DNA from: Okamejei kenojei
Lineage: Eukaryota
Assembly (NCBI GenBank): GCA_035221665.1
Contig: CM069150.1
Span: 37,138,001 to 37,202,000, forward strand
Reading direction: 5' to 3'
Length of the DNA: 64,000 nt
Shown here: positions 1,869-63,944 of the stretch, in pieces
Layout: each line of letters starts with the position of its first letter
How positions within the stretch are numbered: position 1 is the first letter of the stretch
Program-made: the position numbers and the translations under genes
Notes under the pieces: model-generated
Seen by the model: the letters and a program-made list of their open reading frames with translations, nothing else
What the model was told of the DNA's origin: nothing
Databases searched by the model: none

Positions 1869-1896
1869 CTGATGAGGGCTTTGACCCGAAAAGCCG
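1869..1896 (+). ncRNA. Hammerhead-like motif with canonical CUGAUGA core; helix III degenerate
   Basis: CTGATGA-GGG-CTTTGA-CCC-GAAA followed by the Penelope-type tail TCCTCTCCATCCACAGATGCTGCTCGACCCGCTGAG. Confidence 0.5.
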
Positions 1897-10340: not shown

Positions 10341-10573
10341 AAGAAGGTAGACTCAAAATGCTGGAGTATCTCAGCGGGTCAGGCAGCATCTCTGGAGACA
10401 AGGAATAGGTGACATTTCGGATCGGGACACTTCTACAGCCCCTTGCTCTAAAGAAGGGTCTGCACCCAAAACGTTACCTATTCCTTTTCTCCACAGATGC
10501 TGCCTGACCCGCTGAATTACTCATGTTTTTGTGTGTCTATCTTCTGTGTATTCCAGCATCTGCAGTTCCTTCC
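10341..10573. mobile_element. Penelope-derived fold-back mini-element with inverted degenerate hammerhead motifs
   Basis: GAAGGTAGACTCAAAATGCTGGAG..CAGCGGGTCAGGCAGCATCT pairs with AGATGCTGCCTGACCCGCTG..TCTATCTTC; unpaired 3' tail CCAGCATCTGCAGTTCCTTC. Confidence 0.8.
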
Positions 10574-14300: not shown

Positions 14301-14575
14301 CCTGACTGAAGCCTGAATAAAGGAATGGATGAAGAATCATACATAACAAATCATGGATATATCTCCAATGAAGGATAACCTGTTTAACACTCCACTCATT
14401 TTTTTTTGATTTTCTATTTTTACTTTATTTTTCTCTATTTTTTCCTATCTGCAATAAAAACAAAAAAAATGTATAGAAATACAAATAAGACATAACTGTT
14501 AATATTAATAATATTACGAATGTATGTGACAAGTATATTCTTTTAATATGTACTTACGTCTAATAAAAATATTTA
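11344..14575 (+). mobile_element. L1-clade LINE, 5'-truncated, disrupted ORF2
   Basis: 21-bp TSD TCAAATTCCTGGGCGTGCACA (11323-11343 and 14576-14596); DAEKAFD, RGCRQGCPLSP, LYADD motifs; 3' AATAAA. Confidence 0.93.
11923..12105 (+). mobile_element. CR1 3' tail inserted in L1 ORF2
   Basis: ELDVALVAKGIRGYGEKAGTGY plus GAATGGCCTACTCCTGCACC and (TTTCTATG)n; nearly the same as 15441-15625; L1 text resumes ATATAGAGCTATAGC. Confidence 0.9.
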
Positions 14576-18491: not shown

Positions 18492-19618
18492 TGTTAAAGA
18501 AGGAACTGTAGATGCTGGAGAATCGAGGGTACACAAAAGGCTGGAGAAACTCAGCGGGTGCAGCAGCATCTAAGGAGCGAAGGAGATAGGCGACGTTTTG
18601 GGTCGAGACCCTTCTTCGAACTGGTCAGGGATCAGGGAAACGAGAGATATAGCCGGTGATGTGGAGAGATAAAGAACAATGAATGAAAGATATGCAAAAA
18701 AGTATCGATGATAAAGGGAACAAGCCATTGTAAGCGATTTGTGGTGTGAAAATGAGAAGCTGGTGCGACTAGGGTGGGGGAGGGAGATAGAGAGAGAGGG
18801 AATGCCAGGGCCCGAGGGCTGAGGGAGAGGTGGGAAGGGGAGGAGACAGCAAGGGTTAACAGAATTGAGAAAATTCAATGTTCAAGCCCAAAGGATGCAG
18901 ACTCCCCAAGCGGAATATGAGGTGCTGTTCCTCCAACTTGTGGTGTTGCTCACTATGGCCGTGGAGGAGGCCCAGGACCGAGAGGTCGGATACGGAATGG
19001 GAGGGGGAGTTGAAGTGCTGAGCCACTGGGAGGTCAGGTTGGTTAATGCGGACGAGCGAGACCAAGCGGAGGCTTGGCGATCGTTTCGCCGAACTCCTCC
19101 GCTCGGTCCGCATTAACCAACCCGACCTCCCGGTCAGCACTCAGCACATTCCGTATCCGACCTCTCGGTCCTGGGCCTCCTCCACGGCCAGAGTGAGCAA
19201 CACCACAAGTTGGAGGAACAGCACCTCATATTCCGCTTGGGAGTCTGCATCCTTTGGGCTTGAACATTGAATTTTCTCAATTCTGTTAACCCTTGCTGTC
19301 TCCTCCCCTTCCCACCTCTCCCTCAGCCCTCGGGCCCTGGCATTCCCTCTCTCTCTATCTCCCTCCCCCACCCTAGTCGCACCAGCTTCTCATTTTCACA
19401 ACACAAACAGCTTACAATGGCTTGTTCCCTTTATCATCGATACTTTTTTGCATATCTTTCATTCATTGTTCTTTATCTCTCCACATCACCGTCTATATCT
19501 CTCGTTTCCCTGATCCCTGACCAGTCCAAAGAAGGGTCTCGACCCGAAACGTCGCCTATCTCCTTCGCTCCTTAGATGCTGCTGCACCCGCTGAGTTTCT
19601 CCAGCCTTTTGTGTACCC
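18492..19618. mobile_element. Young Penelope insertion forming a ~1.1-kb inverted repeat
   Basis: Arms ~18527-19050 and ~19052-19618 are reverse complements (mirror ORFs 18570-18878 and 19267-19575); 14-bp TSD AAAGAACTGCAGAT (18478-18491 and 19619-19632). Confidence 0.92.
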
Positions 19619-23010: not shown

Positions 23011-23022
23011 TAAAAAAGGAAA

Positions 23023-23868
23023 ATGTCCCACAAGCTGCTAATAAATATTATGATTAAACAGCCTGAAATGGTTTTACATACAGATGCTAGTGCTCTCGGA
23101 TGGGGGGCCACAGATTTATCCTCCAGTTGTGGAGGTAGATGGAAAACTGAAGAACAAGTGTTTCTCCAAGAGTATGGTATTAACTATTTGGAGTTATTGG
23201 GGGCCTTTTATGGGCTTAAAGCATATTGTTGTGCTAAACAAGGTCTGCATGTGTTAATACAATTAGACAATAAAACAGCTGTGGTTTACATTAATCACAT
23301 GGGGAGAGTTGGATCAGTATCATGTGATTGTCTGGTCAATGAGATATGGCAATGGTGTATTGGTCGGCAGATATGGATTTCAGTAAGCTATACTCCAGGT
23401 AAAGACAATGTGGTAGCAGATGAAAGGTCCAGGATTTTTAAAGATAATACGGAATGGATGTTTAAGCCAGCAATATTTAAGAATATTGTTAGACGATTTG
23501 GGTTGCCAGAAATTGATTTGTTTGCATCCAGGCTTAATCATCAATTGCCTCATTATGTGTCTTGGGAACACGATCCGGACGCAGTTGCAGTAGATGCATT
23601 TTCATTACACTGGGGAAAAATGTTCTTTTATGCTTTTCCACTATTTGCTCTGATCCAGAGATGCTTGAAGAAAATAGAGCAAGATTCAGCTTCCGGATTG
23701 TTGGTAGTGCCAAATTGGCCAACTCAACCTTGGTTCCCAGTTATGCTGAATATGATTAAAGAACCGTATATGCAGATTCCTAACTGTAGTGATATCTTGA
23801 CTAATCCAGTAACAAATGAAGATTACCCATTATATGCATATATGAATTTGTTAATCTGCAGGTTTTGA
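23023..23868 (+). CDS. DIRS RNase H plus Dam-like adenine methyltransferase-type domain (281-aa open segment)
   Basis: LHTDASALGWGA, INYLELLGA, LDNKTAVVYIN, PGKDNVVADERSR (RNase H); DLFASRLNHQLP.YVSW..DP.A.AVDAF..W..FYAFP..WPTQPWF (DIRS MT domain). Confidence 0.85.
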   Translation: MSHKLLINIMIKQPEMVLHTDASALGWGATDLSSSCGGRWKTEEQVFLQEYGINYLELLGAFYGLKAYCCAKQGLHVLIQLDNKTAVVYINHMGRVGSVSCDCLVNEIWQWCIGRQIWISVSYTPGKDNVVADERSRIFKDNTEWMFKPAIFKNIVRRFGLPEIDLFASRLNHQLPHYVSWEHDPDAVAVDAFSLHWGKMFFYAFPLFALIQRCLKKIEQDSASGLLVVPNWPTQPWFPVMLNMIKEPYMQIPNCSDILTNPVTNEDYPLYAYMNLLICRF

Positions 23869-23869
23869 C

Positions 23870-24837
23870 CAGACCACTACAGGAACTGGGATTGTCGGAC
23901 CAAACTTGACAGTTATTGGCGCATCATGGCGAGATAGCACACAGAAACAATATATGACATATATTAAGAAATGGGAAGAATTTTGCACACAGTCAAAATA
24001 TTTCTGATGATTCTGTGAATGTTACTCATGTTTTGGAATTCCTTGCCAATTTGCGCTTTGGCCAACATTTAAGTTACAGTGCCATTAACACTGCACGCAG
24101 TGCCTTGTCGTCCTATTTAGGACTTATGACTGGTGAGAAATCAATTGGGTCGCATCCATTAATATCACGATTCATGAAAGGAATTTTTCACATGAATCCG
24201 CCAAAACCTAGATATACAGAGATTTGGGATGTGAGCATAGTACTTGCTCTACTTAGAGAATGGACGCCAATTGAAGGGTTGTCATTGGATAGGTTAACAT
24301 TGAAATTGGTCATGTTAATGTCACTGGTCTCAGCCCAAAGAGTGCAAACTTTACAAATGTTGCGTTTAGACTGTATGCATGTGACTACAGATAACGTTGT
24401 ATTCTATGTTTACGATCTGATCAAACAAAGTAGACCAGGGAGATCTGGAACAAAGGTAACCTTTCAAGCTTTTCATATTGAGCTTGCTTTGTGTGTGGTT
24501 AGACATTTGAACCAATGTATTAAAGTGACGGACACTTTTCGAGGAAACGAAAAGACATTGCTGCTTACGCACAAAAAGCCACACACAAAAGCTTCAGTTC
24601 AAACTATCTCAAAATGGTTGAAACAGGTGTTGGTTTTAGCGGGAGTAGACACTGATGTCTTCAAATCTCACTCCACCAGGGCGGCAGCTACGTCCGCGGC
24701 GAAGGGGCGGGACGTACCTCTCGAGCATATTTTTAAAAATCGCAGGGTGGAGTAAAGAAGAAACTTTTTCAAAGTTCTACAACAAACCTGTTCACACTAT
24801 GACAAGCTTTGGACACGCGGTGTTGGGAGCACTATAA
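23870..24837 (+). pseudogene. DIRS tyrosine recombinase with a frameshift near 24735
   Basis: LSYSAINTARSALS, AQRVQTL, HSTRAAATS; AGWSKEETFSKFY continues in another frame. Confidence 0.88.
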
Positions 24838-25075: not shown

Positions 25076-25188
25076 TCTTCACGTAGTCACTCACGTGACT
25101 CCGAAGTAAAATAGTAAGATTAAACGAGAACTCACCTGTTCGAAGTTTGATCGTTATTTTACGAGGAGTTACGATGAGGGATTACGTG
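25076..25188. repeat. DIRS internal complementary region (ICR)
   Basis: 25076-25113 is the exact reverse complement of 20505-20542; 25106-25188 is the exact reverse complement of 25337-25419. Confidence 0.95.
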
Positions 25189-26084
25189 CCCTCCACTCCC
25201 ACCCTCGTAAAATAAATGATCAAATGGTGGTTCTAAGTCTTTTTATGAGCCTTACTATGTTACTCCGGCTTTGGTGTTCTGTGTTTTTCATGCCGTTGCT
25301 TTGAAGTATGCCGTTACCAGCGTGAGGCGGGCTCTTCACGTAATCCCTCATCGTAACTCCTCGTAAAATAACGATCAAACTTCGAACAGGTGAGTTCTCG
25401 TTTAATCTTACTATTTTACCTGATTATCAGATGGTGGCGCTAAGTGTCCGTGCTATAAATTTGGCTTTGGTTGGGGTCATTTGCCCTGGGCTGAACTGGC
25501 AGTGTGCCTGCCTGAATTCTTCCTGGTTTCACCTCCCTGCGCACCAGCTGTTTTGAGTCCTGGACTGTTGCCCCACCAACCCAGTAATGGTTAATGTTGA
25601 AGAAGCCATGTTATTCAGATCTTTCATTGCTTGTAGAATTTTGTTGAAATGGCGAGCGTACTGTTATTCAGTATGTGCACGTGTTGTAATAATTTCATCT
25701 GGATAATTGGCGTGTGTTTAATGCACCTCCTAAAGTAATCAAATTTAAATTCTTGTGCATGCTGATGCTTGAGTTAAAACATTGACATTTAGCATACATG
25801 CACAACTTAAAAGAAAAGCTCAGTACTGTTATAATAGAAAAAGACAGATTTGGCAGGAAACTGTAAACATATCCACTATTGGTTACATAGCACATATTTT
25901 CATTTGGAGTCTTTGGCAAAGATTTTAGAAAAATGTTGACTTGATTTGAATTTGATTTTATTCAAATGTTGATAAAAAATACTTCAATATAAATAAAAGT
26001 TGGAGCCATTTTTAAACAGAGGATTATGTTCCCATAATAATTACTAACTAAAATATAGTGAATTTTGTGATACTTTAATGTTAG

Positions 26085-31236: not shown

Positions 31237-31550
31237 GAAACAAGGAACTGCTGATGCTGGTTTACACAAAAATATACAAAGTGCTGGAGTAACTCAGCAG
31301 GTCAAGCAGCATCTCTGGAGAACATGGGTCGGTGTTGTTTTGGGTCGGGACCCTTCTTCAGACTCCTCTTGACTTGACCTCTATTCCCCTCACACTCCAA
31401 TCGCACCCCCAATGAACACGCAGCTTTCATTTAATTAGCAACTATCCCAACAAAGTCTGAAGAAAGGTCCCGACCGGAAACATCACCTATCCATGTTCTC
31501 CAGAGATGCTGCTTGACTCACTGAATCACTCCAGCACTTTGTGTCTTTTT
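31237..31550. mobile_element. Penelope-derived fold-back mini-element with two inverted hammerhead motifs
   Basis: AAAGTGCTGGAGTAACTCAG..CCCTTCTTCAGAC, spacer, GTCTGAAGAAAGGTCCCGACCGGAAACATCACC..CTCCAGCACTTT. Confidence 0.8.
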
Positions 31551-38463: not shown

Positions 38464-39511
38464 ATGTCTACACAGCGCAGCCCACCCATGGATAAACCGA
38501 AAAGGAGGGCTACCAGGCTGAAACCGGGAGAAGGCTCGACTGAAGCCGCGGGCTCAGGTAGGACGTTATCCCAAGAAGATGTGACGAAAAAAACAACGAA
38601 AAAATCGGAAGGTGAAGAACTTAAAACTTTTATTGCATGTGAAGTTGCTGGTTTAAGGGAAGAAATAAAGCTGATGAATGTTGGTGAAGAAATAAAAAAA
38701 AATCAAGGAGGAAATGAAGGACTTAAAGCTTGAAATTAATACCAACTTTAATACCACGACTAAGAATACATCGGATGATTTGAAGAAAGAAATCGCAGAA
38801 ATAATGATTGGACTGGCAAAGGAGACGAATGATAAAATCAAAAATGTGAAAACTGATTTTGAAGAAAGGCTGAATCCTGTGGAACAGGCACTGAACCAAC
38901 AGACGATTGCCATAAAAGACCTTGAAGAACTAGCCAAAACAAGTGCTCAGACCACAGCAACGCTTATTACAGAAAATCAATGTCTAACTGAATTACTGGG
39001 CAAAATAACCGAGAAATGTACTGAATTGGAAGGTCGCCAGAGAAGACAGAACCTAAGAATTGCGGGTATTCCAGAAGGGAAAGAGAAAGATCAAGATCCC
39101 CGAGAATTCACTGCAAATTTACTGCAAAATGTTTTATCTCTGGATCAAAAGCCTTTACTAGCCGGAGCACATAGAGCGATGAGACGTCAAACAAGACCAA
39201 ACGCTCCCCCAAGACAAATGATAATAAAAGTACAGTACAACCACGTCTTGGAGGAGATAATGCAAAAAACATCAAGAAACAGAAGTCTTGCATTTGAAAG
39301 GCACAGGATCAGTATTTATCGAGACTATCCAGCAGAGATCTCCAGGAAACGAAAAGCGTTTAATGAGACTAAAAGTATCTTGAGGGAAGTGGAGAATTTG
39401 AAATATGGTCTGAGCTATCCAGCTACCCTAAGAGTCACTTACAACAAGAAGGAGCATTATTTCACCAATCCTGTGGAAGCATTGGACTTTGCCCAGAAGA
39501 TTAAGGCTTGA
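38464..39511 (+). pseudogene. L1 ORF1 (coiled coil, RRM, CTD) with a frameshift near the A-run at ~38695
   Basis: LEGRQRRQNLRIAGIPEG, AHRA, ISIYRDYP..ISRKRKAF, YGLSYPATLRV. Confidence 0.88.
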
Positions 39512-41931
39512 GAGGATGCTTGATGCCTCACCATTGAATAAACTGACTTTGCAGGACTGGATGGAATTGAAGTGGTGACTAAGGAAGCTGGAGAAAGATG
39601 TGGATCGGAAACTCTCCCATGGATACTAATAATTAGTATAACTGCACTACTAATAAAAATAACTAATAAATACTAAAATTATACCATGGTATCTTTACTA
39701 ATCAGAATTAATAATTATCACTGATGACTAATGTTTATTTATAATGGAATGATTAGAGTCAAATGTAGAGTTTGTTTTCATTTGTCCTGTTTGGAAACCT
39801 TCTTTCCTTTTTACTAGTAATTTTCATTTTTATTTTCTTTTTCCCTTTCTTTTCGTTTTTTTTTAAAATTAGGTTTTCAAACAAGTTTTAAATATATGTA
39901 TCCTCACATTTCAGACTATTGTAACCCGAATATTTTAAAATTTAATATCCCCAGTAAAATATTGCTATGGAATAAAAATTCCAAGAAACAAAGGAGCTGG
40001 TTAAGTTCATAATATCAACTACGGAAGTCGGTAGATGGTTAGCCATGCTAGTATGGCTAGCACTAACTACACTAATACTAGATGTAGTTTTTTCCTTCTT
40101 TGTGCACAATACTAATTTCTTAACCTATCCTCTTTTCTTCTCTATTATAAACTATCATTATTATTTTCAGTTTGAATGGAGTTACAAATTGGATCAAAGG
40201 AGATATACACGTGAGAGACATTCAAGGGTCTTAACATTCGTCTATTCGGAGTTCAGGTGCAAGGTCGGGTGTGTCGAACTGAACCATTGACTCTATTATA
40301 GACCCCCATAGACAAAAGATGCAAGATTTATAAATGAATACGGGGAATGAAGGAATAACGTTTTGCAGCTGGAACGTTAAAGGTATTAATGAACCAATTA
40401 AGAGAGGTAAAATATTAGCACATTTAAAAGCTGATGTGATTTTCATTCAAGAAACACAGTTAAAAAAAGATGCCGAGCATAGGCTGAAAGCTAAATGGAT
40501 AGATAAAACGTATCATTCTTCTTTTACACACAAATCAAGAGGCGTAGCAATATTATTTCGTAAAGGCACTTTATTCAAACATACATCAACTATAACTGAT
40601 AATGATGGCAGATACATTATTGTAATAGGAGAATTAAATGCACAAAAAATGATTTTTGTCAATGTATATGAACCAAACTTTGATAGTCCACTGTTTTTTA
40701 AGAAAATATTTAACAACATCCGGAAATAGCACAACCTAATTTAATAATTGGAGGAGATTTAAATTGTACATTAGATTCCTATTTAGACAGATCCACAAGA
40801 CAAAGGAAAACCAAATTCCATTCCAGTGACTTATTAAATGCATATATGGATACTAGTAATATTAAAGATGTTTGGAGCGTAGAAAATCCAACTGGACGAG
40901 AATATTCATTTTATTCACCTGTACATGAAACCTATTCAAGAATAGATTATTTTTTGGTTGACGCTAAACTTATCTCACTCACTTATAATTCAAAATACCA
41001 TAATATTACAATCTCAGATCACGCACCTTTAACATTTATGATTAAAATAAATGGTAAAACGGAAAAACGGGGACAATGGAGATTTAATCCACAAATTTTA
41101 AAAAACAAAGCTACTCAGGAATATATTATAGAACAGATCAAGATTTTCTTTGAAATAAATGATAAACCGGAAATATACTCTTCCCTATTATGGGAAACTT
41201 TTAAAGCATATACCCGTGGAATTATGATTTCTTCTCAAGCATGTTATAATAAAATGAATCGGAGGGAACAACAGGAATTGGAAAAGGAGATTAAACAATT
41301 AGACACAGAGAACGCTGCTAATCCATCCATAACAACACATAATAAAATCGCTGCACTGAAATATAAATTAAATAAAATATACTCAGATCACGTTGTAAAA
41401 CTCTATCAATACACTAAACAATTACAATTTGAATTTGGAGATAAACCTCAAAAATTATTAGCTCGTCAATTAAGAAAGATGGAGGGAGAAAAAATAATCC
41501 ATAGGATTAAATCATATAATGGCAAACCATTAGTACAACCTAAAGATATTAATGAGAGATTTTTGCAATATTGTAAACATTTATATTCAGCTAAAACGAC
41601 CGAAAACAGGATAGGAATAGAAGCATTTTTAAAAAAATGTAATCTGAATGGGTTGGATTCACACAATAGAGAATCACTAAATGCTGAAATTTCAGTAAAA
41701 GAAATCGAAGAATCTATCAGATTATTAAAAACTGGTAAAACACCGGAACCAAATGGTATTGGCTCAGAATTTTATAAAATATTTTATGATCTGATTGCAC
41801 CACGTCTGAAGATACTCTAATGAATACATTTATACTCACCAGAAACTAGCAGAAACGTTAAATGAATCTATTATAACACTTATACCTAAAATAGACAAAG
41901 ATCTGGATGACCCAGGATCATATAGAGCTAT

Positions 41932-44170
41932 GGGGGTTACACAAAAGGCTGGAGAAACTCAGCGGGTGCAGCAGCATCTAAGGAGCGAAGGAGATAGGCA
42001 ACGTTTCGGGTCGAGACCCTTCTTCAGACTGGTCAGGGAAACAAGAGATATAGACGGTGATGTGGAGAGATAAAGAACAATGAATGAAAGATATGCAAAA
42101 AAGTATCGATGATAAAGGGAACAAGCCATTGTAAGCTGTTTGTGGTGTGTAAATGAGAAGCTAGTGCGACTAGGGTGGGGGAGGGAGATAGAGGGAGAGG
42201 GAATGCCAGGGCCCGAGGGCTGAGGGAGAGGTGGAAAGGGGAGGAGACAGCAAGGGTTAACAGAATTGAGAAAATTCAATGTTCAAGCCCAAAGGATGCA
42301 GACTCCCCAAGCGGAATATGAGGTGCTGTTCCTCCAACTTGCGGTGTTGCTCACTCTGGCCGTGGAGGAGGCCCAGGACCGAGAGGTCGGATACGGAATG
42401 GGAGGGGGAGTTGAAGTGCTGAGCCACCGGGAGGTCGGGTTGGTTTTTGCAGACCGAGCGGAGGTGTTCGGCGAAACGATCGCCAAGCCTCCGCTTGGTC
42501 TCACCGATATAGATCATCTGGCATCTGGAGCAGCGGATGCAGTAGATAAGGTTGGAGGAGGTGCAGGTGAACCTCTGTTGGACCTGGAAGGACTGCTTGG
42601 GTCCCTGAAAGGAGTGGAGGGGGGAGGTGAAGGGACAAGTGTTGCATTTCTTGCGGTTGCAAGGGAAAGTGCCCGGGGAAGGGGTAGAGCGGGAGGGGAG
42701 GGAAGAATTGACAAGGGAGTTGCGGAGGGAGCGGTCTTTGCGGAAGGCAGACGGGGGGGGGGGGGGGGGGAGATGGGAAGATGTGGCGGCTGGAGGGGTC
42801 ACGTTGGAGGTGGCAAAACTGGCGGAGGACTATGTGTTGTATTTGCCGGCTGGTGGGGTGAAAGGTGAGGACCAGGGGGACTCTGCCCTGTTTGCGAGTG
42901 GGGGAATGGGGAGAGAGGGCAGTGTTGCGGGGTATGGAGGAGACCCTGGTGCGACCTCATCAATAGTGGGGGAGGGGAATCCCCGTTCTCTGAAGAATGA
43001 GGCCATTTGTGATGACCTGGTGTGGAACACCTCATCCTGGGAGCAGATGCGGCGTAGACGAAGGAATTGGGAATAGGGGATGGAGTCCTTATAGGAAGCA
43101 GGGTGGGAGGAAGAGTAGTCCAGGTAGCTGTGGGAGTCAGTTGGTTTGTAGTGGATGTCGGTCAGGAGTGTATCACCTGCAATAGAGATGGTGAGGTCAA
43201 GGAATGGTAGGGAAGTGTCGGAAATGGTCCAAGTGTATTTGAGTGCCGGATGGAAGTTGGTGGTGAAATGAATGAAGTCAGTCAGTTATGTGTGGGTGCA
43301 GGAGGTGACACCAAAGCAGTCGTCGATGTAATGGAGGTAGAGGTCGGGGATGGGGCCCTGGTACGCCGAGAACAAGGATTGTTCAACGTACCCAACAAAG
43401 AGGCAAGCGTAGCTGGGGCCCATGTGTGTGCCCATAGCTACGCCTTGTGTTTGGAGGAAATGGGAGGAATCAAAAGAGAAGTTATTGAGGGTAAGGACAA
43501 ACTCCGCTAGGCGGAGGAGGGTGTCAGTGGACGGGTATGGGTTGCTCCTCTGGTCGAGGAAGAACCGGAGGGCTTTGAGACCGTCCTGGTGGGGGATGGA
43601 GGTGTAGAGTGACTGGACGTCCATGGTAAAGATGAGAGGATGGGGGCCTGGAGAATGGAATGCACGGAGCCGATGGAGAGTGTCTGAGGTGTCTTGAACA
43701 TAGGTGGGGAGGAATTTAACAAAGGGGGATAGGATGGCGTCAAGGTAGTAGAAATGTGTTCAGTGGGGCACGAACAGGCAGAGACAATGGGTCTGCCAGG
43801 GCAGTCGGGTTTGTGGATTTTGGGGAGAAGGTAAAATCGGGCCGTGCGGGGCTGGGAAACGATGAGGTCGGAGGCTCGGGGGGGGTAGGGAGCCGGAGCT
43901 GATGAAGTCGGTTATGGTGCTCGAGATGGTGGCCTGGTGTTCGTCAGTGGGGTCATGGTCCAGGGGTAAGTAGGAGGAGGTGTCCGAGAGTTGGCGCGCG
44001 GCCTCCGCTTTGTAGAGATCGACGCGCCAGACTACCACGGCACCTCCCTTGTCGGCGGGTTTGATAACCCAGTCTGGGTTGTTACGGAGTGAGTCGATGG
44101 CAGTACGTTCGGGGCTGGAGAGATTGGAGTGAGACAGGGGAGTGGAGAAGTCGAGGCGGTTGATGTCCCG
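41932..44170 (-). mobile_element. Penelope (Poseidon-like) retroelement, 5'-truncated: RT, GIY-YIG endonuclease and 3' repeat
   Basis: IKPADKGGAVVV, MDVQSLYTSIP, GVAMGTHMGPSYA, YIDD, NLIYCIRC..YIGETKRRL..RFAEH; 10-bp TSD ATAGAGCTAT (41922-41931 and 44171-44180). Confidence 0.95.
42000..42027 (-). ncRNA. Minimal type-I hammerhead ribozyme motif, best-preserved copy
   Basis: Minus strand reads CUGAAGA-A-GGGU(CUCG)ACCC-GAAAC-GUU: core, helix II, palindromic AACGUU helix III and an NUH site. Confidence 0.7.
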
Positions 44171-47100
44171 ATAGAGCTATAGCTCTTTTAAATACTGATC
44201 AAAAGATACTAACCAAAATATTAGCACAAAGACTAAGTACAGTTATTAATAAATTAATTCACCCCGATCAAACAGGATTTATACCAAAACTATATTCCTC
44301 ACATAACCTGAGACGATTATACAATATTATATATTCGAAAAGAGGTATTAATAAAGACCTAGTAATTATTTTGTTAGATGCGGAGAAAGCCTTTGACCAG
44401 GTGGAATGGTCTTACTTGGTTTTGGTTATGGAAACTTTTAAGTTGGGAGAGAAGTTTATTACTTGGGTTAAATTATTATACACTAATCCAACAGCCAGAA
44501 TAATAACAAATCAAATGCTATCAACTAAATTTAATCTATCTCGAGGCTGCAGACAAGGTTGTCCTTTATCCCCACTACTGTTTGCACTTGCAATAGAACC
44601 ATTAGCTCAACGTGTGAGATTACATCCTGAAATATATGGGTATGACACCAGAGATACCGAAAATAAAATCTCCTTATATGCGAATGATGTATTACTTTAT
44701 ATTACAAAACCGGAAATTAGTATCCTAAATTTACTAAAATTATTAACTGAATTTGGATTATTTTCAGGATATAGTATTAATTGGAATAAAAGTGAACTTA
44801 TGCCAATAATGGTAAATAACTTACATATATTACAACAATTTCCTTTTAAGATAGCAAACAAAAAAATCAAATATCTTGGAATTTATGTAACAAAAAGATT
44901 TGATTCTTTATTTAAATCCAATTTTCCACTCTTATTGAATAAATTAAATAAGAACATTTTATAATGGAAAACACTACCCAGCTCAATGCTAGGTAGAATT
45001 AATGCAATAAAAATGATTTTTCTTCTGCAATTACTATATCTTTTCCAATTGATTCCGATATATCTTCCTAAAAATTTCTTTAAGAAGGTGGATTCTATAG
45101 TCATCAACTTTATCTGGGATTATAAGAGCCATAGAATAAATAAAAAACATTTATGTAAATCAAAAATAAATGGAGGTCTAGCACTGCCAAACTTTATGTT
45201 TTATTACTGGGCAGTTAATATTAAAAATATGAATTTTTGGTTAGTAGAGACAGATAAACAACCAATCTGGTTAAAAATGGAAAAAGAAGATTGTTCGCCT
45301 TTTGAAATTAGTTCGATTTTATTCGCCAATATTTAAACTAGGTAAGAAAATCTATAGTGAAAACCCTATAATAGAAAGTGGAATGCGTATCTGGAAACAA
45401 ATAAAGAAAATATTAAAATCGGAATGTATACCCCTAGCCCTTACCATTGTAAATAACATTACATTTAAACCCTCAATGATGGACAAAGGTTTTTTACAAT
45501 GGAAAAACTATGGAATTAATAAGATGGGCGATCTCTACAGGGAAAATTCTTTCCTTTCATTTCAAGAATTACAACAAATTTATGGATGACATTCAAAAGA
45601 TTACTTTAGATATTTACAAATTAGAGACTACGTAAAAGCAAACACACAGGAAATTAGAAATAGAAAGACAGAAATTTTAGATGAATGTCTAAATAAACAC
45701 CCGAACATAGAAAAATTGATATCATATATTTATAATATTTTATTGGAAAACGATGTCCCAATGACAGAAATATATAGGCAATCATGGGAAAACGAATTAG
45801 GTAAAATCATTAGACCTGAAGTATGGGATGAAAGTTTACAACATATACACCACTGCTCGTTAAATGCTAGACACTCTCTTATACAATTTTAAATATTACA
45901 TAGACTACATTATTCAAAATCCAAACGACATAGTATTTTTTCAAATGTATCTGCCATATGTGATAAATGTCAACACTTAGAAGCTAACTTAACGCACTCA
46001 TTTACAAATTGTGTAAAAATTACTAAATTTTGGACAGAAATATTTAAGATAATTTCGAATGTTGTTAATATGAATCTGATCCCTGACTCAAAGTTAATAA
46101 TACTGGGAATATTAGAAACAGATCAATTAATAACAACGAATCAAAGAATGTTTATTGATTACAGTTTAATAATTAGGAAAAAGTTAATATTGAAATTCTG
46201 GAAAGGTCCTACATCCCCCACAATCAAAATGTGGATTACAGGAATGTCGGAGACACTTCATCAAGGAAAGATTAAGGCTTGTCCTACTCCACAAGTTGGA
46301 TCTTTTCAGAGGAATATGGTCTCCATTTATTGAATATCTAAAGGGTCAAAATGGCTCGGTGTGAGAGCCTGACTAAAGCCGGAATAATGGAATAGATGAA
46401 GAATCACGTATAACAAATCATGGATATATCTCCAATGATGGATAACTTTTTTAATACTCCACTCATTTCTTTATTTTTGATTTCCTACTTTTACTTTATT
46501 TTTCTCTATCTTTTTCTACCTGCAAAAAAAATGTATAGAAATATATAAGACATAATTGTTAATATTAATAATATTACGAATGTATGTGAGAAGTATATTC
46601 TATTAATATGTACTTACGTCTAATAAAAATATTTAACAAAAATAAATCAAAACTTATCCTAGGATTACATGACTTTTGAGTCATCAACGCACAGGTTTTG
46701 TGCATGCCACCAGTAATAATGATTGGTTATTATTGTCCAAACTCATCTAAACCTAATTTGTATTGCCACTGATTGTACAAGGTGAACACTTTGTGAAGCA
46801 CTGGAGTCCTTAGCCCCTGCTATTTGCACTACAAAGATTTATTTTACTTCTTCATGCAGGTTACTTGAGCATTTACAACAGACTAAACTGGTTGTACTCG
46901 TTTTACAAACGGCAAACATATTTTCAGACTACTGCGAGCCAGAAATATGCAAAAGTACCATATTTTTAGAATCCATGAACTGATGTCCAGTCTCATAATT
47001 ATTGTGAGTCAAAAAGCAAGTTTAAAATAAAATTCAAGCCGCAGTCTAAAATGGTTAAATTTGTCAATAAAACAAGAAATGTTAATCCAGATTATTAGAA

Positions 47101-48149: not shown

Positions 48150-49680
48150 CATTGAGTGTAACTTCAACCTGACAATGATGAAGGCCAAGGACAGAACGAT
48201 TGCTATGGGAATGGGAGGGGGGTGTTAAAGTGGTTAGCAACCAGAAGATGCAGCAGGTCTTGGTGGAAAGAGCGCAAGTATTCAGTGAAACGCTTGCCGA
48301 GTGTGCTCTTGGTCTCACCGATGTCAAGGAGGTCACATCAGGAGCACCGAGCAGCAGTAGACGGGGTTTGAAGAGGTGCATGTGAACATCTGTCTCACCT
48401 CGAGGGGCTGCTGGGATCCCTGGATGGAGGTGAGGGAGGAGGAATCGGGTCCTACGGTTGCAGGGGAATGTACCTGAGGATGGTGCAGTTTTGGTGTGGT
48501 GGGGCTTTGCTGGCTTTACTTTGCGCTAAAAGTTGTTCCAATATCATGTATCTATACATTGTAAAATTATCGATTGTAATCACGCATTGTCTTTCTGCTG
48601 ACTGGTTAGCACGCAATAAATGTTTTTCACTGTACCTTGGTACACGTGTCAATAAACTAAACTGGGCTTATAGTCACTGGAATTTAGGATGAGAGGGGAT
48701 CTTATAGAAACCTATAAAATTCTTAAAGGGCCTGTCCCACTTGGGCGACCTAATCCTCGAGTTCTGGCGAATTTGCCCTCGACTCATACTCGCAGCATGG
48801 TTGACACGAGATTGTAGGAGGTCTTCGTAACTCTACTTCATGCTCGAGAGTGGTCTCCGCGTACTCGAGACCTCAGCTAGGTTGCGGCGTTTTTTTCAAT
48901 ATGTTAAAAAATGCCCGCGAGTAGAAATAGGTCGCCATGGAAAAAATCGATACTTTTTTTACTCGTAGGTTTAGTCGTAGTAGGTAATCGCGGGTAGTCG
49001 TTGATAGTCTTCATCATAGTCGAAGGGAGGTCGAAGGAGATCGAAGGAGGTTGTCTTCACTCTCCACTGTCCAATTTTCCCGAAGTTAGTCGTAGCTGGT
49101 CGTAGCTAGTTGAAGGAGGTCGAAGGAGGTCTTCAACATGTCATTTTTTAAAAACGCTTCTAAACTCGCCAATTTGGTCGCCCAAGTGGGACAGCCCTTT
49201 AAGGGGTTGGACAGGCTAGATGCAGGAAAGAAAATTCAAGATGTTGGGGGAATCCAGAACCAGGGGTCACAGTTTAAGAATAAAGGGTAGGCTATTTAGG
49301 ACTGAGATGAGGAGAAACCTTTTCACCCAGAGTTGTGAATCTGTGCCACAGAAGGCAGTGGAGGCCAATTCACTGGATGTTTTCAAGAGAGAGTTAGATA
49401 TAGCACTTAACGCTAACAGAATCAAGGGATATGGGGAGAAAGCAGGAACCCTGTACTGATTTAGGATTATCAGCCATGTTCATATTGAATGGCGGTGCTG
49501 GCTCGAAGGGCCGAATGGCCTACTCCCGCACCTATTTTCTCTGTTTCTAAACTGAACTGGAGTAAAAAGGGATGAGTGAACCAAGGAGCTGTGGGAGTGA
49601 AGTCTGCGGAATGGGGTGGGAAAAGAAAGATATGGCTGGTGGTGGGATCATGTTGAAAGTGGTAGAAATGTCACAAAAGG
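48150..49680 (-). mobile_element. Old Penelope fragment carrying nested LINE tail, CR1 3' end (48667-49548) and a MITE
   Basis: GIY-YIG-like text at 48150-48480 resumes near 49560; CR1 text AAAATTCTTAA|GGGGTTGGACAGG is split by the MITE. Confidence 0.65.
48727..49199. mobile_element. PIF/Harbinger-type MITE
   Basis: TIR AGGGCCTGTCCCACTTGGGCGACC / GGTCGCCCAAGTGGGACAGCCCTT; TAA TSD supported by the uninterrupted CR1 text at 15250-15270. Confidence 0.88.
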
Positions 49681-49779: not shown

Positions 49780-50148
49780 TGCCCCTGTCCCACTTAGGAG
49801 ACCTAAACAGCAACCTCTGGTAACCTTGCCCGCCACCCAAAAAAAAATCAAGGTCGAGGTGACCTGCAACCTCCTCCCACCTCCCATGCATATGTTGAAA
49901 TCCTTCCTCGACTATGACCTGCGACAAAAAAATTATCGATTTTTAAAACGGCAACCTATTTTTAGTCGAGGCCGGTTTTAATCATGATGAAAAAATAACA
50001 GCAACCTAAATGAAGCCTCGACCACGCGAAAACCACTTTTGACCATTGGGGAGAGTGACCAAAACCTCCGGTGACCTCATGGAAACCTTGGGTGGCGGGC
50101 AAGGTCACCAGAGGTTGCTGTTTAGGTCTCCTAAGTGGGACAGGGGCT
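49780..50148. mobile_element. PIF/Harbinger-type MITE with ~60-bp TIRs
   Basis: GCCCCTGTCCCACTTAGGAGACC..CCACCCAA and its reverse complement; TTA TSD. Confidence 0.88.
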
Positions 50149-50690: not shown

Positions 50691-50860
50691 AGGTATACAA
50701 AAATGCTGGAGAAACTCAGCGGGTGAGGCAGCATCTATGGAGCGAAGGAATAGGTGGCGTTTCGGGTCGAGAACCTTCTTCAGTCTTGCCTCACCCGCTG
50801 AGTTTCTCCAGCATTTTTGTCTACCTTCGATTTTCCAGCATCTGCAGTTCTTTCTTAAAC
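50691..50860. mobile_element. Penelope-derived fold-back mini-element, 170 bp
   Basis: 15-bp TSD ATTATTGACAGTGGA (50676-50690 and 50861-50875); inverted arms; hammerhead motif on minus at ~50756-50783. Confidence 0.88.
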
Positions 50861-51111
50861 ATTATTGACAGTGGATATCTGGTTACCACATACTGTTGAC
50901 AGGAACTCTTGTTCCTTTAAGCATCCCTCACCATAGAATACCATTGTCATGGTGCAGGATTCTCAAAGGAAACCCCACAAAGAACTGCATGTGCTGGAAT
51001 CTTGATCTAAAGTGTGTTTTATTGTCAATTCAAGGCTGATACTATACATAAGCTGGCTTTCCTGCTGGCAACTATTGAGACTGCCTTAGGGCAGGCCTGA
51101 GTTTACAATAG

Positions 51112-52120: not shown

Positions 52121-53252
52121 CTCACAACTTCTGCTGGCAGAGGGAGGAGACCATCACCGCTCCCTCTGAAGAAGGGTCTCCACCCGAACCTCCACCCATT
52201 CATTTTTTCTCCAGAGATGCTGAGTTATTCCAGCATTTTGTGTTTATCTTTGGTGTAAACCAGCACCTGCAGTTCCTTCCTACACATCACTGCTCCCTCA
52301 CTGACTGGACACAAGCAACTGCACACCCTGAAATCTTGAGCATAAAGCACAAAGTGCTGGAGAAACTCAGCGGGCCAGTATCTAAGTCTCAAGAAGGGTC
52401 CCGACTCGAGACGTCCCCTATCCATATTCTCCAGATATGCTGCCTGACCGGTAGAGTTATCCCAGCACCTTGTGTTTTTTTGCTCACTCAAAAAAAACTG
52501 TTACCCTTCAAACACCACAACAACTGATGCCAAAATGGGGAGGGGACCGAAAGACTGTTACAATCCTTTGATCAAGACCTTTCCCAGCAGGTCCCACATT
52601 GTTATTCAACAAATTAATAACTTCCCCTTTAAGTTGTTGACTGCCAAACATTGCACTTCTTGTGGGATCTTGCAATTGTCAAGTCAGGGAAGTAAATAGC
52701 CAAGGATGGAAATAATGGTTGCAGGGATGATCAACGCCGGTATCACTGATTTTTAGTAATGACTCGAACTGTTTGATTTTTAGAATCTTACAGGATAAAT
52801 GTCTACTTTATGTAGACAGCGAACATTTATTGTCAATGCCAAATGGGCTGTTTGAGGAGGCGATTAAGAGTCAACCATGTTGAAAAGTCTGAAGTTGCAT
52901 GTTGATAGATCTGATAAAAATCTGTTCCAAATATCAGTCTAAACTTTCCAATCTGGATCGAACAATTTACTTTCTCCTGCAATTGGAACAGAGCTCTTCC
53001 TTTAAGGACATTCCTTAAAACCTGTCACTTTAACCACGATTTTGTGCACAAATCTTAAAATCTACATTCAGCTTTAATGATCTTCCCGTTAAAGGTGCAT
53101 AAAAGTTGTTAATAATCAACTTTCTATTCCACTCCATACCTTAACAACCTGTGTAATATTATCATGAGATAGGTGGATGCCATTTACCCCTCAGACTAGG
53201 AAGCAGTGTTGACCAAGCTATTCTCATGATCAGCATAATGAAGGTTCACTTA

Positions 53253-53832
53253 AGGGCCTGTCCCACTTGGCTATCTTATGCGCGCCATTTACACGACCTA
53301 GTGTGTGGACGCATGTAGTGGTGTGGAAGAGTGTGGAGCGGCGTGGAGGAGTATGGACTTCGTCCTGCATGAAATCTTCACGCGCCACTGGCCTGTCGCA
53401 TAACTGACGGCCAAAGTGAGACAGGCCCAAGACCCTGGCGGGGCGCGACGTCTCATCTCCAACAGCAGCAGAAGCAGGCAAACGATCGCTGAGCTCGGCC
53501 TGGGGCTCACGGCCATTGCGGATCTGGATCCGCCCCCACTTCTACTCCCAGAGCGGGGCCAGACGTTTGGAGATGGACACAAAATGCTGGAGTAACTCAG
53601 CGGGACCGGCAGCATCTCTGGAGAGAAGCAGTGGGTGACCTGAAACATCACCCATTCCTACTCTTCAGAGATGCTGCCGGTCCCGCTGAGTTAGTCCAGC
53701 ATTTTGTGTCCATCATCAAATGACGTCACGCGCTCCAGACGGCTGTGCGGACGCATGATGACTCGCCATGACCGTCGTGCGCCAGTTACTACCGGCCTGT
53801 CGCGTAAATGACGGCCAAGTGGGACAGGCCCT
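53253..53832. mobile_element. PIF/Harbinger-type MITE containing a Penelope-derived hairpin (~53570-53712)
   Basis: TIR AGGGCCTGTCCCACTTGGC / GCCAAGTGGGACAGGCCCT with TTA and TAA flanks; extra internal copy of the right end at ~53390-53428. Confidence 0.82.
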
Positions 53833-54819
53833 TAAGTCACTCCCAGACCACAGATTGGAACCTTGAGCAAATAAACACCAAGTGCTGGAGTAACACAATG
53901 AACACTGAACATAGAACAGTACAGCACAAGAGCAGGCCCTTTGTCCTACAATGTAAGTACCGAACATTATCTCCTGTCTTTCTGCATATAATCTATATAC
54001 CTCCATTTCCTGCATATCCATATATCTATCGATCCAAAAGCCTTTTAAATGCCAATATCATACCTGCCTCAACCATCAGCTGTGACAGTGTGTTCCAGGC
54101 ACTCATCACCCTCTGTTTAAAAAAAACATAACCCCTGCACATCTCCTTTAAACTTTGCCCATTTCACCTTAAACTATGTCCTCTAGTATTTGATTTTTCC
54201 ATCATTGTCCTAGGCATCAACTTGCTTCTACTCCATGTCCTTGCTTCTACTCCAGTTTTTTGGGTTATGAGATGGTAAATGGGACCAATGAGCTAAGTAC
54301 AGACATTTTCAAGGACAGGGCAAGAGGTGGATAATGAGCAGGGCAGGTGGGTTGTCCTTTGACTATGAGGTAGTGTGTTTTTTACCAAAGCATATATAAA
54401 ACTTTGTGTTCCGAATGCATGGCCTCAACATTCTCAATACCACCCCGAATGCTCCTTTTTTTATTTTAAGTGATCATGGACCTGGGGTTCCAAGGAGTCC
54501 GTGGGAATGGTGAACTTCGTCAAGCACGCTTGGTGCACATCCACAAATATTTCTCTTTGTCCATGAGTAATCTAGTACGACAGAGTTGAGAATAACCTGG
54601 GTCTATTTTAGGAGTCTGCACAACGTAGTATATTGTATTTTCCAGCTTCCGTTGTATCAGTTTTTTAGATAGATCCCCAAAATTCTTTAACAGGAATATT
54701 AATGAAAATTTGAGAATTTTAAACATCATTGAAACTATATGTGCACATGACATAGAAACATAGAAAATAGGTGTAGGAGGAGGCCATTTGGCCCTTCGAG
54801 CCAGCACCGCATGTGTTGT

Positions 54820-61600: not shown

Positions 61601-61761
61601 AATCTGCATGGAATTCTTCCATAACCTTTATTTTTGGTTGCTTTAATATTATTACCCTTTGTCTCCATTTTGTTCCCATGGTGGGTGGACAGTTCACAGT
61701 CTTCATCTTCATTCCAACATGTTATAGAGCCGTACAACATGGAAATAGATCCTATGCTCCT

Positions 61762-61966
61762 CGAATAACTCAGCGGGTCAGGCAGCATCTCTGGAGAGAA
61801 GGAATGGGTGGTGTTTCGGGTCGAGAGCCTTCTCCAGACTGAAGGGTCTCGACCCGAAACGTCACCCATTCCTTCTCTCCAGAGATGCTGCCTGACCCGC
61901 TGAGTTACTCCAGCATTTTGTGTCTACCTTCGATTTAAACCAGCAACTGCAGTGCTTTCCTACACA
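61762..61966. mobile_element. Penelope-derived near-perfect hairpin element inside an old V-SINE
   Basis: ~75-bp arms TAACTCAGCGGGTCAGGCAGCATCTCTGGAGAGAAGGAATGGGTG and reverse complement; TSD CTATG(C/T)TCCT (61752-61761 and 61967-61976). Confidence 0.88.
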
Positions 61967-62579
61967 CTATGTTCCTAGAGTATGTGCCCACTATCAAACA
62001 TCCAGTTCCACTAATGTTCTATAATACTCACATTCCCTTCAATGCCCACCAGATTCTACCTCCGTCATCATATTCACCAACATACTACGGGCGATTTACA
62101 ATGACCAATTAACCCACCAATCCATAAATCTTTGAAATGTGGGTGGAAACAAAGCACCTGGAGGAAACCCACATGATCACGAGGAAAACATGTAAACTCC
62201 AGACAGACAGCACTGGAGGTCAGGATTGAACTCAAGTTGTTGGAGTGATGAGTGAACAGTTCTATGTTGTGGCACTAGACCACCTTTATGTGTGAAAATG
62301 TTATCCATGTAATATATGTGCTCATATATACTTGGTTTAAATTAGGTTGATTTTGCTAAGTAATTTATTTCCATTGCTATGACATTCTATCAACGAAAGT
62401 GTAAATTTATGCATTAGATTGTCTTGGCAAACTGTCTTGCCAAACTGTTTTATTTGGATGTTCTGTGTTCAAGGTCAAAGTCGTATATTGAAACAGGAGG
62501 ATGGAATGTACATTCATTGTGGGAATAGCAGTATTCAGTCCCAGAATGATCAACAAATGTTAATAGTCTGTAAGTAGTA

Positions 62580-62690
62580 CAGTGCCCTCCATAATGTTTG
62601 GGATAAAGACCTATCATTTATTTTCTTGTGGAGTACAGAGGCAAGTAAATAAATGATTGGTCTTTGTATCAAACATTATGGAAGGCATTG
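62580..62690. mobile_element. Tc1/mariner-type MITE, 111 bp
   Basis: TA|CAGTGCCCTCCATAATGTTTG ... CAAACATTATGGAAGGCATTG|TA. Confidence 0.8.
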
Positions 62691-63944
62691 TATGTATGCT
62701 CTTCATAATAAGAAATTGTCCAGTCTTGTAACTCAGAATATAATTACCGACATCTTTTGTGAGTCTAGATTTTTCCATTTTTGGTCAGCATTGTGATGTG
62801 TTAACAATCGGTTTCTCATGAACGCTGTCAATTAACCTCCACAGCTGGAATCACTGCAAGCAAGTTTTAGTGCAGAGTTAATGTTGTAATCTCCCAAAAA
62901 AGGATTCACTGCTAAGGCTTTTCTTTTCCCTGAGCTTTCATTCATGAGGTACTGGCCTGGATGGATTTGGCATTTGGCTTAACACTCGTGGAGCTCAGTG
63001 CCCTTTAATACCTGTGTATTCATTAAGCAGATCTTCACGTGTTCTAGAAACTACTTTAAGCATTGTTATGAAGCATTCACACTAAATATGTTTTGCCATT
63101 CCATCCTCAATTCTCTCAGCCAATCTTTTAGCATGGTTGGTCTGTTTACATGATCGGCCACTATGATTGGGATTGTATACTCCCAACAGCTCTTGAATTT
63201 CAGTGCAGATATGATCTTTTTTTTACACTTTCCTCTGACCCCATCTCTTTGGCCAGTTCTACCTCCTTGTTCAGCTTTCACTGTCCTCACAAATCTTCCC
63301 CTCCCTGACCCCGAGTGACTGTTCCTCAGCAAGAGGCCTCTGGTTTGTCTTCCTCCACGCCCATCTAAGTGAATTCTGAGTATGACACGACATTGAACTT
63401 TTCTTTGACTGTCCCCACCTTTGTGCGCATTCTTTTGGTCAGGAGTCTTCACTTCAAATTGTAAATCTTTCCCTTGCCAGGATTTCCGTTGCCTCTGGCC
63501 TCTTGTCTTATCTCGAAACAGTCATTGCAGACCTCTGATGCAATAATGACCATCCTTATTTTTTCTATACCCTTTACTTGCTCTAACATTTTGTCTTCTG
63601 AACGCAACAGTCTATTTATGAAGACTAAATCAATATCATCATCAAACTCATAGAGAAGGGTAGCGCTTGTTGTGGTGTGGTGAGCTGACTCCTATGTTGC
63701 AGACACCAAATGTCAACCCACCCAAACTTACTTTCTCACACCTCCTTCTGCACTATGACCCTATTACTAATGGTCTGGCTATTGTCTACCAGCTGGTTTC
63801 ATGTTTAATTTCCTCAAGAGATCTTCCATCCAAAGCTTTCAGTGTTGCAATCTCCCAGTGCTGCACAGCTGCTCATATCTCCTGCCCTAAATTCAGAAGC
63901 AGAACTGTTACAGCATTGTTTCAGGCTGCACCAACCACACATAG

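What the first reader, a model, noticed from the sequence alone, without database searches (positions are those of the whole stretch)
61762..61966. Fold-back mini-element with a hammerhead motif on each strand
Seen: a ~205-bp insert with a 10-bp TSD made of two inverted Penelope ends meeting at the ribozyme motif, so either strand folds into a long rod with one motif. Only one arm carries the extra ~35-nt tail (GATTTAAACCAGCAACTGCAGTGCTTTCCTACAC). Both cores are damaged here. The same layout recurs at 10341, 31237, 50691, ~52310 and 53570. Inference: either a non-coding retrozyme-like family moved by Penelope proteins, or repeated products of the known Penelope inverted-end integration. The differing junctions between copies favour the second, but the first would be a new system.
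Basis: partly seen in the sequence, partly recalled or inferred. Interest (0 to 1): 0.7.

Follow-up and report, generated by a model that had tools for sequence, protein, structure and literature searches.

The report
Penelope hairpin scar, rebuilt per insertion
This 205-base hairpin is two back-to-back copies of the end repeat of a very common Penelope-type jumping gene, likely built afresh when the element inserted rather than copied as a unit, and its two damaged ribozyme motifs are likely just passengers.

Summary
The hairpin is real: two head-to-head Penelope (PLE) pLTR ends, a one-sided 35-nt tail, a TSD and two damaged minimal hammerheads. It is most likely an ordinary integration product, not a retrozyme.

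Among 104 fold-backs none had two tails and 91 had one. TSDs were found in 54 of 66. Both arms shared the source's variants (25 of 25 and 23 of 23). A-to-G changes were not enriched (39 vs 42 T-to-C), and the rod buries the ribozyme.

Inner ends pile up just before the hammerhead, 30 nt after a TATA-like box; 8 of 25 ORF-bearing copies start there too. That point is likely the RNA's 5' end. My reading is that two primings at the two internal RT start sites give short cDNAs that run off that end and join.

One hairpin carried by a MITE shows 28 different centres in 32 copies, so centres decay after insertion. Repeated odd junctions were passengers in larger repeats.

The layout is published, and this scan reached the same reading on other DNA and in this genome.

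The parts
61752..61767 (+). Left TSD copy (first 10 bp clear; probably 16 bp, overlapping the arm start)
   Evidence: 9/10 and 13/16 identity to the right copy; relatives restore 10/10
61762..61837 (-). Tail-less arm, sense on the minus strand; outer end about 18 nt inside the usual first RT start site
61810..61837 (-). Damaged minimal hammerhead (A6G, helix II mismatch, cleavage triplet changed)
   Evidence: sequence
61835..61841 (.). Junction CAG-A-CTG at the inferred RNA 5' end; 3 nt missing just to its right
61839..61863 (+). Damaged minimal hammerhead (3-nt deletion removes A9 and the bulge)
   Evidence: sequence
61839..61931 (+). Tail-bearing arm up to the first RT start site; in full-length family A copies this stretch holds an ATG about 50 nt after +1
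61932..61966 (+). 35-nt tail between the two RT start sites; continues into the ORF region in full-length family A copies
   Evidence: PMC11167929
61967..61982 (+). Right TSD copy
41930..44170 (-). 5'-truncated, frameshifted autonomous-type Penelope copy of young family A (RT, GIY-YIG, pLTR with TATA-like box, CAGT and hammerhead at 42003-42027)
18499..19618 (-). Same architecture with about 475-nt arms, one tail and a 14-bp TSD
10343..10573 (+). Older fold-back: two damaged cores, tail right, no TSD found
31238..31550 (-). Fold-back with an 89-nt spacer, tail left, no TSD found
50691..50861 (+). Asymmetric fold-back: one core, tail right, perfect 15-bp TSD
52348..52475 (+). Asymmetric fold-back, one damaged core, no tail; next to a separate solo tailed arm (52166-52286, 15-bp TSD)
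53571..53717 (.). Core-less, tail-less hairpin carried inside a MITE (53248-53837)

Best explanation
The insert is two head-to-head Penelope pLTR ends between a target duplication, likely made in one integration event in which the enzyme primes twice on its own RNA and the two short cDNAs likely run off the RNA's 5' end and join. Steps. (1) Shown: the arms are the pLTR end of an RT plus GIY-YIG Penelope family. (2) Shown: outer ends fall at two fixed sites about 33-35 nt apart, never both at the tail site, flush with a TSD of about 15 bp. Inferred, from in vitro work on Anolis PAc: these are the two internal RT start sites, used on opposite target strands. (3) Shown: inner ends pile up within about 5 nt of the A of CAGT just before the hammerhead core. 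Inferred (about 70%): this is the transcription start, so priming in the 5' pLTR of the mRNA yields only 100- or 135-nt cDNAs. (4) Shown: both arms carry the same source variants. Inferred: one RNA or one source locus serves both, and the cDNA ends join through the CAG-A-CTG palindrome or a few extra bases. (5) Shown in MITE-borne copies: hairpin centres are deleted after insertion. Inferred: this copy's 3-nt loss is such decay or slippage. The hammerheads are likely passengers.
For: Tails: 0 of 104 selected fold-backs with two, 91 with one, 13 unscored. In the random sample 22 of 25 had one and 0 had two; P = 0.005-0.02 if arms were independent. TSD 54 of 66 vs control 1 of 66; tail end exact in 33 of 36 family A copies. 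Short target-RNA overlap at both outer ends: mean 1.1 and 1.8 nt vs 0.4 and 0.6 control, 26 of 36 scored. Arms in the same family in 71 of 73 classified. Two family A markers concordant 25 of 25 and 23 of 23, expected 15.9 and 12.4. CpG-type changes are mostly on one arm only. 5' breakpoints: 73 of 170 solo arms at -3..+5, 8.1/nt vs about 1.2/nt beside it; 16 of 27 in family A. 9 of 13 family A solos there have a TSD directly upstream. 8 of 25 ORF-bearing copies start at -2..+9 and none at +10..+84. TATATC lies at -29. G precedes +1 in 3,850 of 10,285 non-C copies, 37% vs about 27% expected. The same architecture occurs with 475-nt arms. No A-to-G excess: 39 vs 42 of 392 changes in 66 hairpins, at most 3 per copy. 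Opening the core costs 32-40 kcal/mol in the rods vs 3.7 in the native 5' RNA.
Against: No RNA data, so the start site and the twin priming are inferred from genomic scars. Arm concordance could partly come from arm-to-arm conversion: an A/T variant occurs in both arms of some MITE copies and in one arm of others (by eye). Snap-back copying predicts the same concordance. In the random sample 7 of 25 pairs got different family labels; at least two have an arm too short for my motif classifier, and I did not resolve the rest. The family B marker was uninformative (11 of 13 vs 11.2 expected). The G excess is modest and includes fold-back microhomology. The +1 site also reads as a splice acceptor (pyrimidine tract plus CAG). 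The pair-finder missed several hairpins in this window, including this one.
Confidence: 0.8

Rival explanations
1. Single priming with snap-back: one cDNA reaches the RNA 5' end, folds on a short palindrome and copies itself, giving the second arm from DNA. This is close to the self-priming proposal in PMC3846280. Still de novo and not a new element.
For: Perfect arm concordance for two markers; palindromic junctions such as CAG-A-CTG and CAGACGTCTG.
Against: The tail-less arm ends at the same site where solo tail-less copies end, where they are primed. An inverted tail alone joined to a full tail-less arm also occurs (L118, L131-139, one origin). PAc extends both target strands from two sites in vitro (PMC11167929). 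One single-TSD copy mixes two families (L018).
Confidence: 0.1
2. Solo or hairpin minis that start at +1 keep an internal promoter and act as Penelope-dependent SINE-like sources. Transcription starts at the hairpin centre and runs outward, and new solos and hairpins are rebuilt from those RNAs.
For: D. virilis Penelope has an internal TATA-less promoter (PMC2377424). Minis that start at +1 far outnumber long copies. An ACGT core at +27..+30 resembles its downstream element (by eye).
Against: PAc needs RNA about 55 nt beyond its main start site (first 172 nt of ORF; PMC11167929), which minis lack. A TATA-like box at -29 is cut off in minis. Tail ends are flush with TSDs, with no 3' transduction seen in the 54 TSD-bearing hairpins.
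Confidence: 0.07
3. The hairpin is a retrozyme-like family, transcribed, cleaved or circularised and reinserted as a unit.
For: High copy number (about 65,000 hairpins, lower-bound extrapolation). Identical junctions at unrelated loci. Junction diversity does not refute it.
Against: One core per strand, so no monomer can be cut out. Cores are buried in the rod. This copy's exact junction occurs in families A, B and C (10, 16, 4) with the tail left in 11 and right in 14 of 30. No editing signal. Left ends sit at a priming site, not at a promoter or in transduced flank. All three repeated odd junctions checked were passengers with shared flanks.
Confidence: 0.03

Closest known systems
EN+ Penelope-like element insertion unit with inverted pLTR, one-sided 30-40-bp tail and TSD (Adineta Pen2a, PMC3846280; PMC8557442; passages read)
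   Same: Head-to-head inverted ends, tail on one side, TSD, palindrome at the junction, pLTR that includes the ORF start, TATA and Inr-like motifs in the pLTR.
   Different: Here the whole insert is only the two ends (about 200 bp), in tens of thousands of copies, with inner ends at one fixed site.
Poseidon of Anolis (PAc) in vitro (PMC11167929; main text read, parts 1-2 of 4)
   Same: Two internal RT start sites bounding the tail; both target strands cut and extended; hammerhead at the ORF start and not needed for insertion.
   Different: In the parts read it does not explain inverted products. It reports initiation without homology to the target, whereas I see 1-4 nt overlaps in genomic copies.
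Minimal hammerheads of metazoan PLEs (PMC4209133; results and discussion read)
   Same: Type I core, bulged base before helix II, palindromic ACGU helix III. The paper notes dual motifs 100-700 bp apart on opposite strands in Schistosoma.
   Different: The two motifs here abut and are damaged.
Non-LTR retrozymes (PMC7229834, passages; bioRxiv 10.64898/2026.07.22.740005, abstract, introduction and part of methods)
   Same: Small, non-coding, PLE-related, hammerhead-bearing.
   Different: Retrozymes are head-to-tail tandems with same-strand ribozymes that release circular RNA; this is head-to-head with one buried core per strand.
L1 twin priming (recalled; no paper read here)
   Same: Two target nicks prime opposite cDNAs that join by microhomology, giving an inversion inside one TSD.
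   Different: L1 twin priming gives non-overlapping pieces; here the two arms overlap almost fully, which needs strand displacement or a second RNA from the same source.

Membership tests
EN+ Penelope-like element insertion | Ends belong to an element with RT and C-terminal GIY-YIG | tested here: met
   Window 41930-44170: RVT_1 E=2e-6 and GIY-YIG E=7e-4, both just under the Pfam cut-off in frameshifted pieces. It carries the same arm type, family A; the focal copy is the related family B, whose own ORF was not retrieved.
EN+ Penelope-like element insertion | Inverted 5'-truncated copy, head-to-head | tested here: met
   25 head-to-head vs 5 tail-to-tail pairs in 1.064 Mb
EN+ Penelope-like element insertion | 30-40-bp tail on one end only | tested here: met
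   0 of 104 with two tails, 91 with one
EN+ Penelope-like element insertion | Target site duplication | tested here: met
   54 of 66 vs control 1 of 66; focal 13/16
EN+ Penelope-like element insertion | Minimal hammerhead in the pLTR | tested here: met
   Motif intact in family copies and damaged in the focal copy; no Rfam match
EN+ Penelope-like element insertion | Clade placement (Penelope/Poseidon) by RT tree | not tested
   Only the domain order and resemblance to the PAc layout were seen
Non-LTR retrozyme | Head-to-tail tandem units, each with a same-strand type I hammerhead | tested here: not met
   One core per strand, head-to-head
Non-LTR retrozyme | Ribozyme able to fold and cleave | tested here: not met
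   Invariant core bases changed; 32.5 kcal/mol penalty in the rod; computed, not assayed
Non-LTR retrozyme | Expressed linear and circular monomer RNA | not testable with these tools
   No holder on record as RNA; contigs only
Non-LTR retrozyme | Copies descend from unit masters | tested here: not met
   Same junction across 3 families and both tail sides; no editing signal. Junction diversity itself is uninformative.

The most novel reading that the evidence does not exclude
The 100-135-nt piece from the transcription start to the tail is a self-sufficient, Penelope-dependent SINE. It keeps an internal promoter, each hairpin is a bidirectional promoter firing outward from its centre, and the family spreads by rebuilding hairpins from single-arm RNAs rather than copying them.
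Probability: 0.1. Interest if true: 0.65.

Novelty: new member of a known kind. Interest (0 to 1): 0.3.

Why it matters
How PLEs make their inverted ends is still open (PMC8557442, PMC11167929). These scars give a specific prediction for the existing in vitro system: two primings on opposite strands, one per start site, from one RNA source, running off a capped 5' end just before the hammerhead. The MITE-borne copies add a caution: hairpin centres decay after insertion, so junction diversity or identity says little about how such elements arise. The element itself is not a new system.

Tried and rejected
Junction clustering as the deciding test: rejected. The symmetric junction is the commonest in the first 100 listed (1,026 strand hits, vs 3,386 for the gapped pattern; the patterns differ slightly). 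But 32 MITE copies of one hairpin show 28 breakpoint pairs. That query was itself a deleted copy, so '0 of 32 intact' is biased.

Repeated odd junctions as unit amplification: rejected. L107/115/120, L118 with L131-139, and L140-143 share flanks.

Splice acceptor as the inner boundary: no shared upstream exon in 100 listed copies each or in loose ends (agreement 0.34-0.56). A very short exon is not excluded.

Hammerhead cleavage site (+31) as a second inner boundary: not seen. 8 of 170 solo ends fall at +28..+34, 1.1/nt, the same as neighbouring bins.

Two RNAs per event: not shown. L183 (families B and A, very different ages, no TSD seen) looks like two insertions; L018 is a single case.

Expression: no RNA holder listed; laid contigs only. 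Rfam matches (psbJ, miRNA, hairpin ribozyme) are below gathering scores and reflect the hairpin shape.

Literature searches returned no paper on short PLE hairpins ending at the start site, or on these elements in cartilaginous fish. Subscription papers, Repbase and supplements were not seen.

Full report
Observation. The window at 61762-61966 holds a 73-nt inverted repeat that folds as a rod on either strand (z about -17.5). A 35-nt tail sits on the right only. Each strand has a minimal hammerhead motif and both are damaged. The TSD is 9/10 as reported and probably about 16 bp (13/16). Contigs from three runs of other organisms cross the left flank into the arm, and contigs over the right end carry C at 61972, which makes the first 10 bp identical. 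So the insertion is shared and old.

Source. The arm is the pLTR end of a Penelope-like element. The window holds a broken copy at 41930-44170 with RT and GIY-YIG pieces. In full-length family A copies the tail runs on into the ORF region, with an ATG about 50 nt after the arm start. At least three families (A young, B the focal one, C) give such arms. A 1.064-Mb sample (100 stretches at round-number positions plus the window) gave 220 arms and 25 head-to-head pairs against 5 tail-to-tail. That is about 570,000 arms and 65,000 hairpins genome-wide. These are lower bounds, because the finder missed several hairpins in this window.

Outer ends. I collected 107 fold-backs from pattern and DNA searches. 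Ten loci, including the focal one, did not fit the junction pattern, and three passengers were then dropped, leaving 104. None had two tails, 91 had one and 13 were unscored. TSDs were found in 54 of 66 testable copies against 1 of 66 controls, mostly 14-17 bp in family A. The tail end was exact in 33 of 36 family A copies and the tail-less end clustered about 33 nt upstream. Both ends overlap the target by slightly more than chance (26 of 36 scored, and the search favours overlap). These match the two internal RT start sites shown in vitro for Anolis PAc, which extends both strands (PMC11167929, main text read). The focal left arm starts about 18 nt inside its usual site, where the target end resembles the RNA; similar short ends occur in L185, L195 and L204.

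Inner ends. Breakpoints peak within a few bases of the A of CAGT just before the core: 73 of 170 solo arms and 20 of 50 paired arms. To exclude a reference artefact I checked family A alone (16 of 27 solos) and TSDs directly upstream (9 of 13). Eight of 25 ORF-bearing copies also start at -2..+9 and none at +10..+84. TATATC lies at -29, and a G precedes +1 more often than base composition predicts (37% vs about 27%). I read this as a capped transcription start, so priming in the mRNA's 5' pLTR gives short run-off cDNAs. This is inference. The site also looks like a splice acceptor, but no shared exon was seen. There is no peak at the ribozyme cut site.

One source per hairpin. Arms fell in the same family in 71 of 73 classified copies (of 104). 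Two family A markers were concordant in 25 of 25 and 23 of 23 scored (of 38), in several allele classes. CpG-type changes were mostly one-sided. Against this: 7 of 25 random pairs got mixed labels from a crude classifier, and arm-to-arm conversion is visible in the MITE copies.

Junctions. This copy's exact junction occurs 30 times, in families A, B and C, with the tail left in 11, right in 14 and unscored in 5. It is therefore recurrent, not one master. Repeated odd junctions were passengers in larger repeats. The 53570 hairpin rides in a MITE. Of 40 listed copies I examined 32: all share the insertion, yet they show 28 different centre breakpoints, and 18 keep one arm to the centre. Centres are thus deleted after insertion. 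That long palindromes lose their centres is recalled knowledge; one search gave no paper that I read.

Retrozyme test. Retrozymes are same-strand tandems that release circles (PMC7229834, passages). Here there is one core per strand. Opening it costs 32-40 kcal/mol in the rods against 3.7 in the native 5' RNA. Sixty-six hairpins show no A-to-G excess (39 vs 42). Expression could not be tested.

Known and new. Inverted pLTRs with a one-sided tail, a TSD and junction palindromes are described (PMC3846280 and PMC8557442, passages), as are opposite-strand minimal hammerheads (PMC4209133, results and discussion). An internal promoter is reported for D. virilis Penelope (PMC2377424, passages), which keeps the SINE-like rival alive. 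My searches found no paper tying short hairpins to run-off at the start site; supplements and Repbase were not seen and may hold such entries. I wrote my reading down before consulting earlier notes. Those notes reach the same view on other DNA and in this genome; they are not independent support. In the 16 summaries listed I saw no mention of post-insertion centre decay.

Verdict. A real feature and a new member of a known kind, interest 0.3. The value lies in the testable twin-priming and run-off model and in the warning about junction tests.

Noticed in passing
window 53248-53837: MITE of about 590 bp with GGGCCTGTCCCACTT terminal repeats carrying a Penelope hairpin; at least 40 genomic copies, nearly each with a different centre deletion. 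A ready system to measure palindrome decay in a vertebrate germline.
   Followed up: yes
window 48711-49215 and 49781-50147: Two more elements with the same terminal repeats but no hairpin match.
   Followed up: no
L116:1352-1688 (G000:C1 near 5435947): Head-to-tail dimer of a 166-bp pLTR piece with a hammerhead motif in each unit. This, not the hairpin, is the retrozyme-like layout. Same-strand 'goes back 83-90' joints hint at more such tandems.
   Followed up: partly
L118, L131-L139: Inverted tail alone joined to a full tail-less arm, as expected if both primings used one RNA; one insertion multiplied inside another repeat.
   Followed up: partly
L018: One TSD around pieces of two families (C arm, B arm with tail, extra B fragment); a possible multi-template event.
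   Followed up: partly
window 18499-19618: Young fold-back with about 475-nt arms at 98-99% complementarity and a rearranged centre, inserted into the tail of an older copy.
   Followed up: partly
window 23014-24755: Frames that look like DIRS-type RNase H and tyrosine recombinase pieces (label recalled, not searched).
   Followed up: no
window 38696-41820, 44164-44964, 12038-14309: L1/Tx1-like ORF1 and ORF2 pieces (label recalled); the Penelope copy at 41930-44170 interrupts one of them.
   Followed up: no
window 1869-1895 (+): A different hammerhead-like core (CTGATGAG...GAAA) in a diverged Penelope-like end.
   Followed up: no
window 62578-62692 and 25106-25419: Unrelated inverted-repeat elements (51-nt arms; 83-nt perfect arms), probably MITEs.
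   Followed up: no
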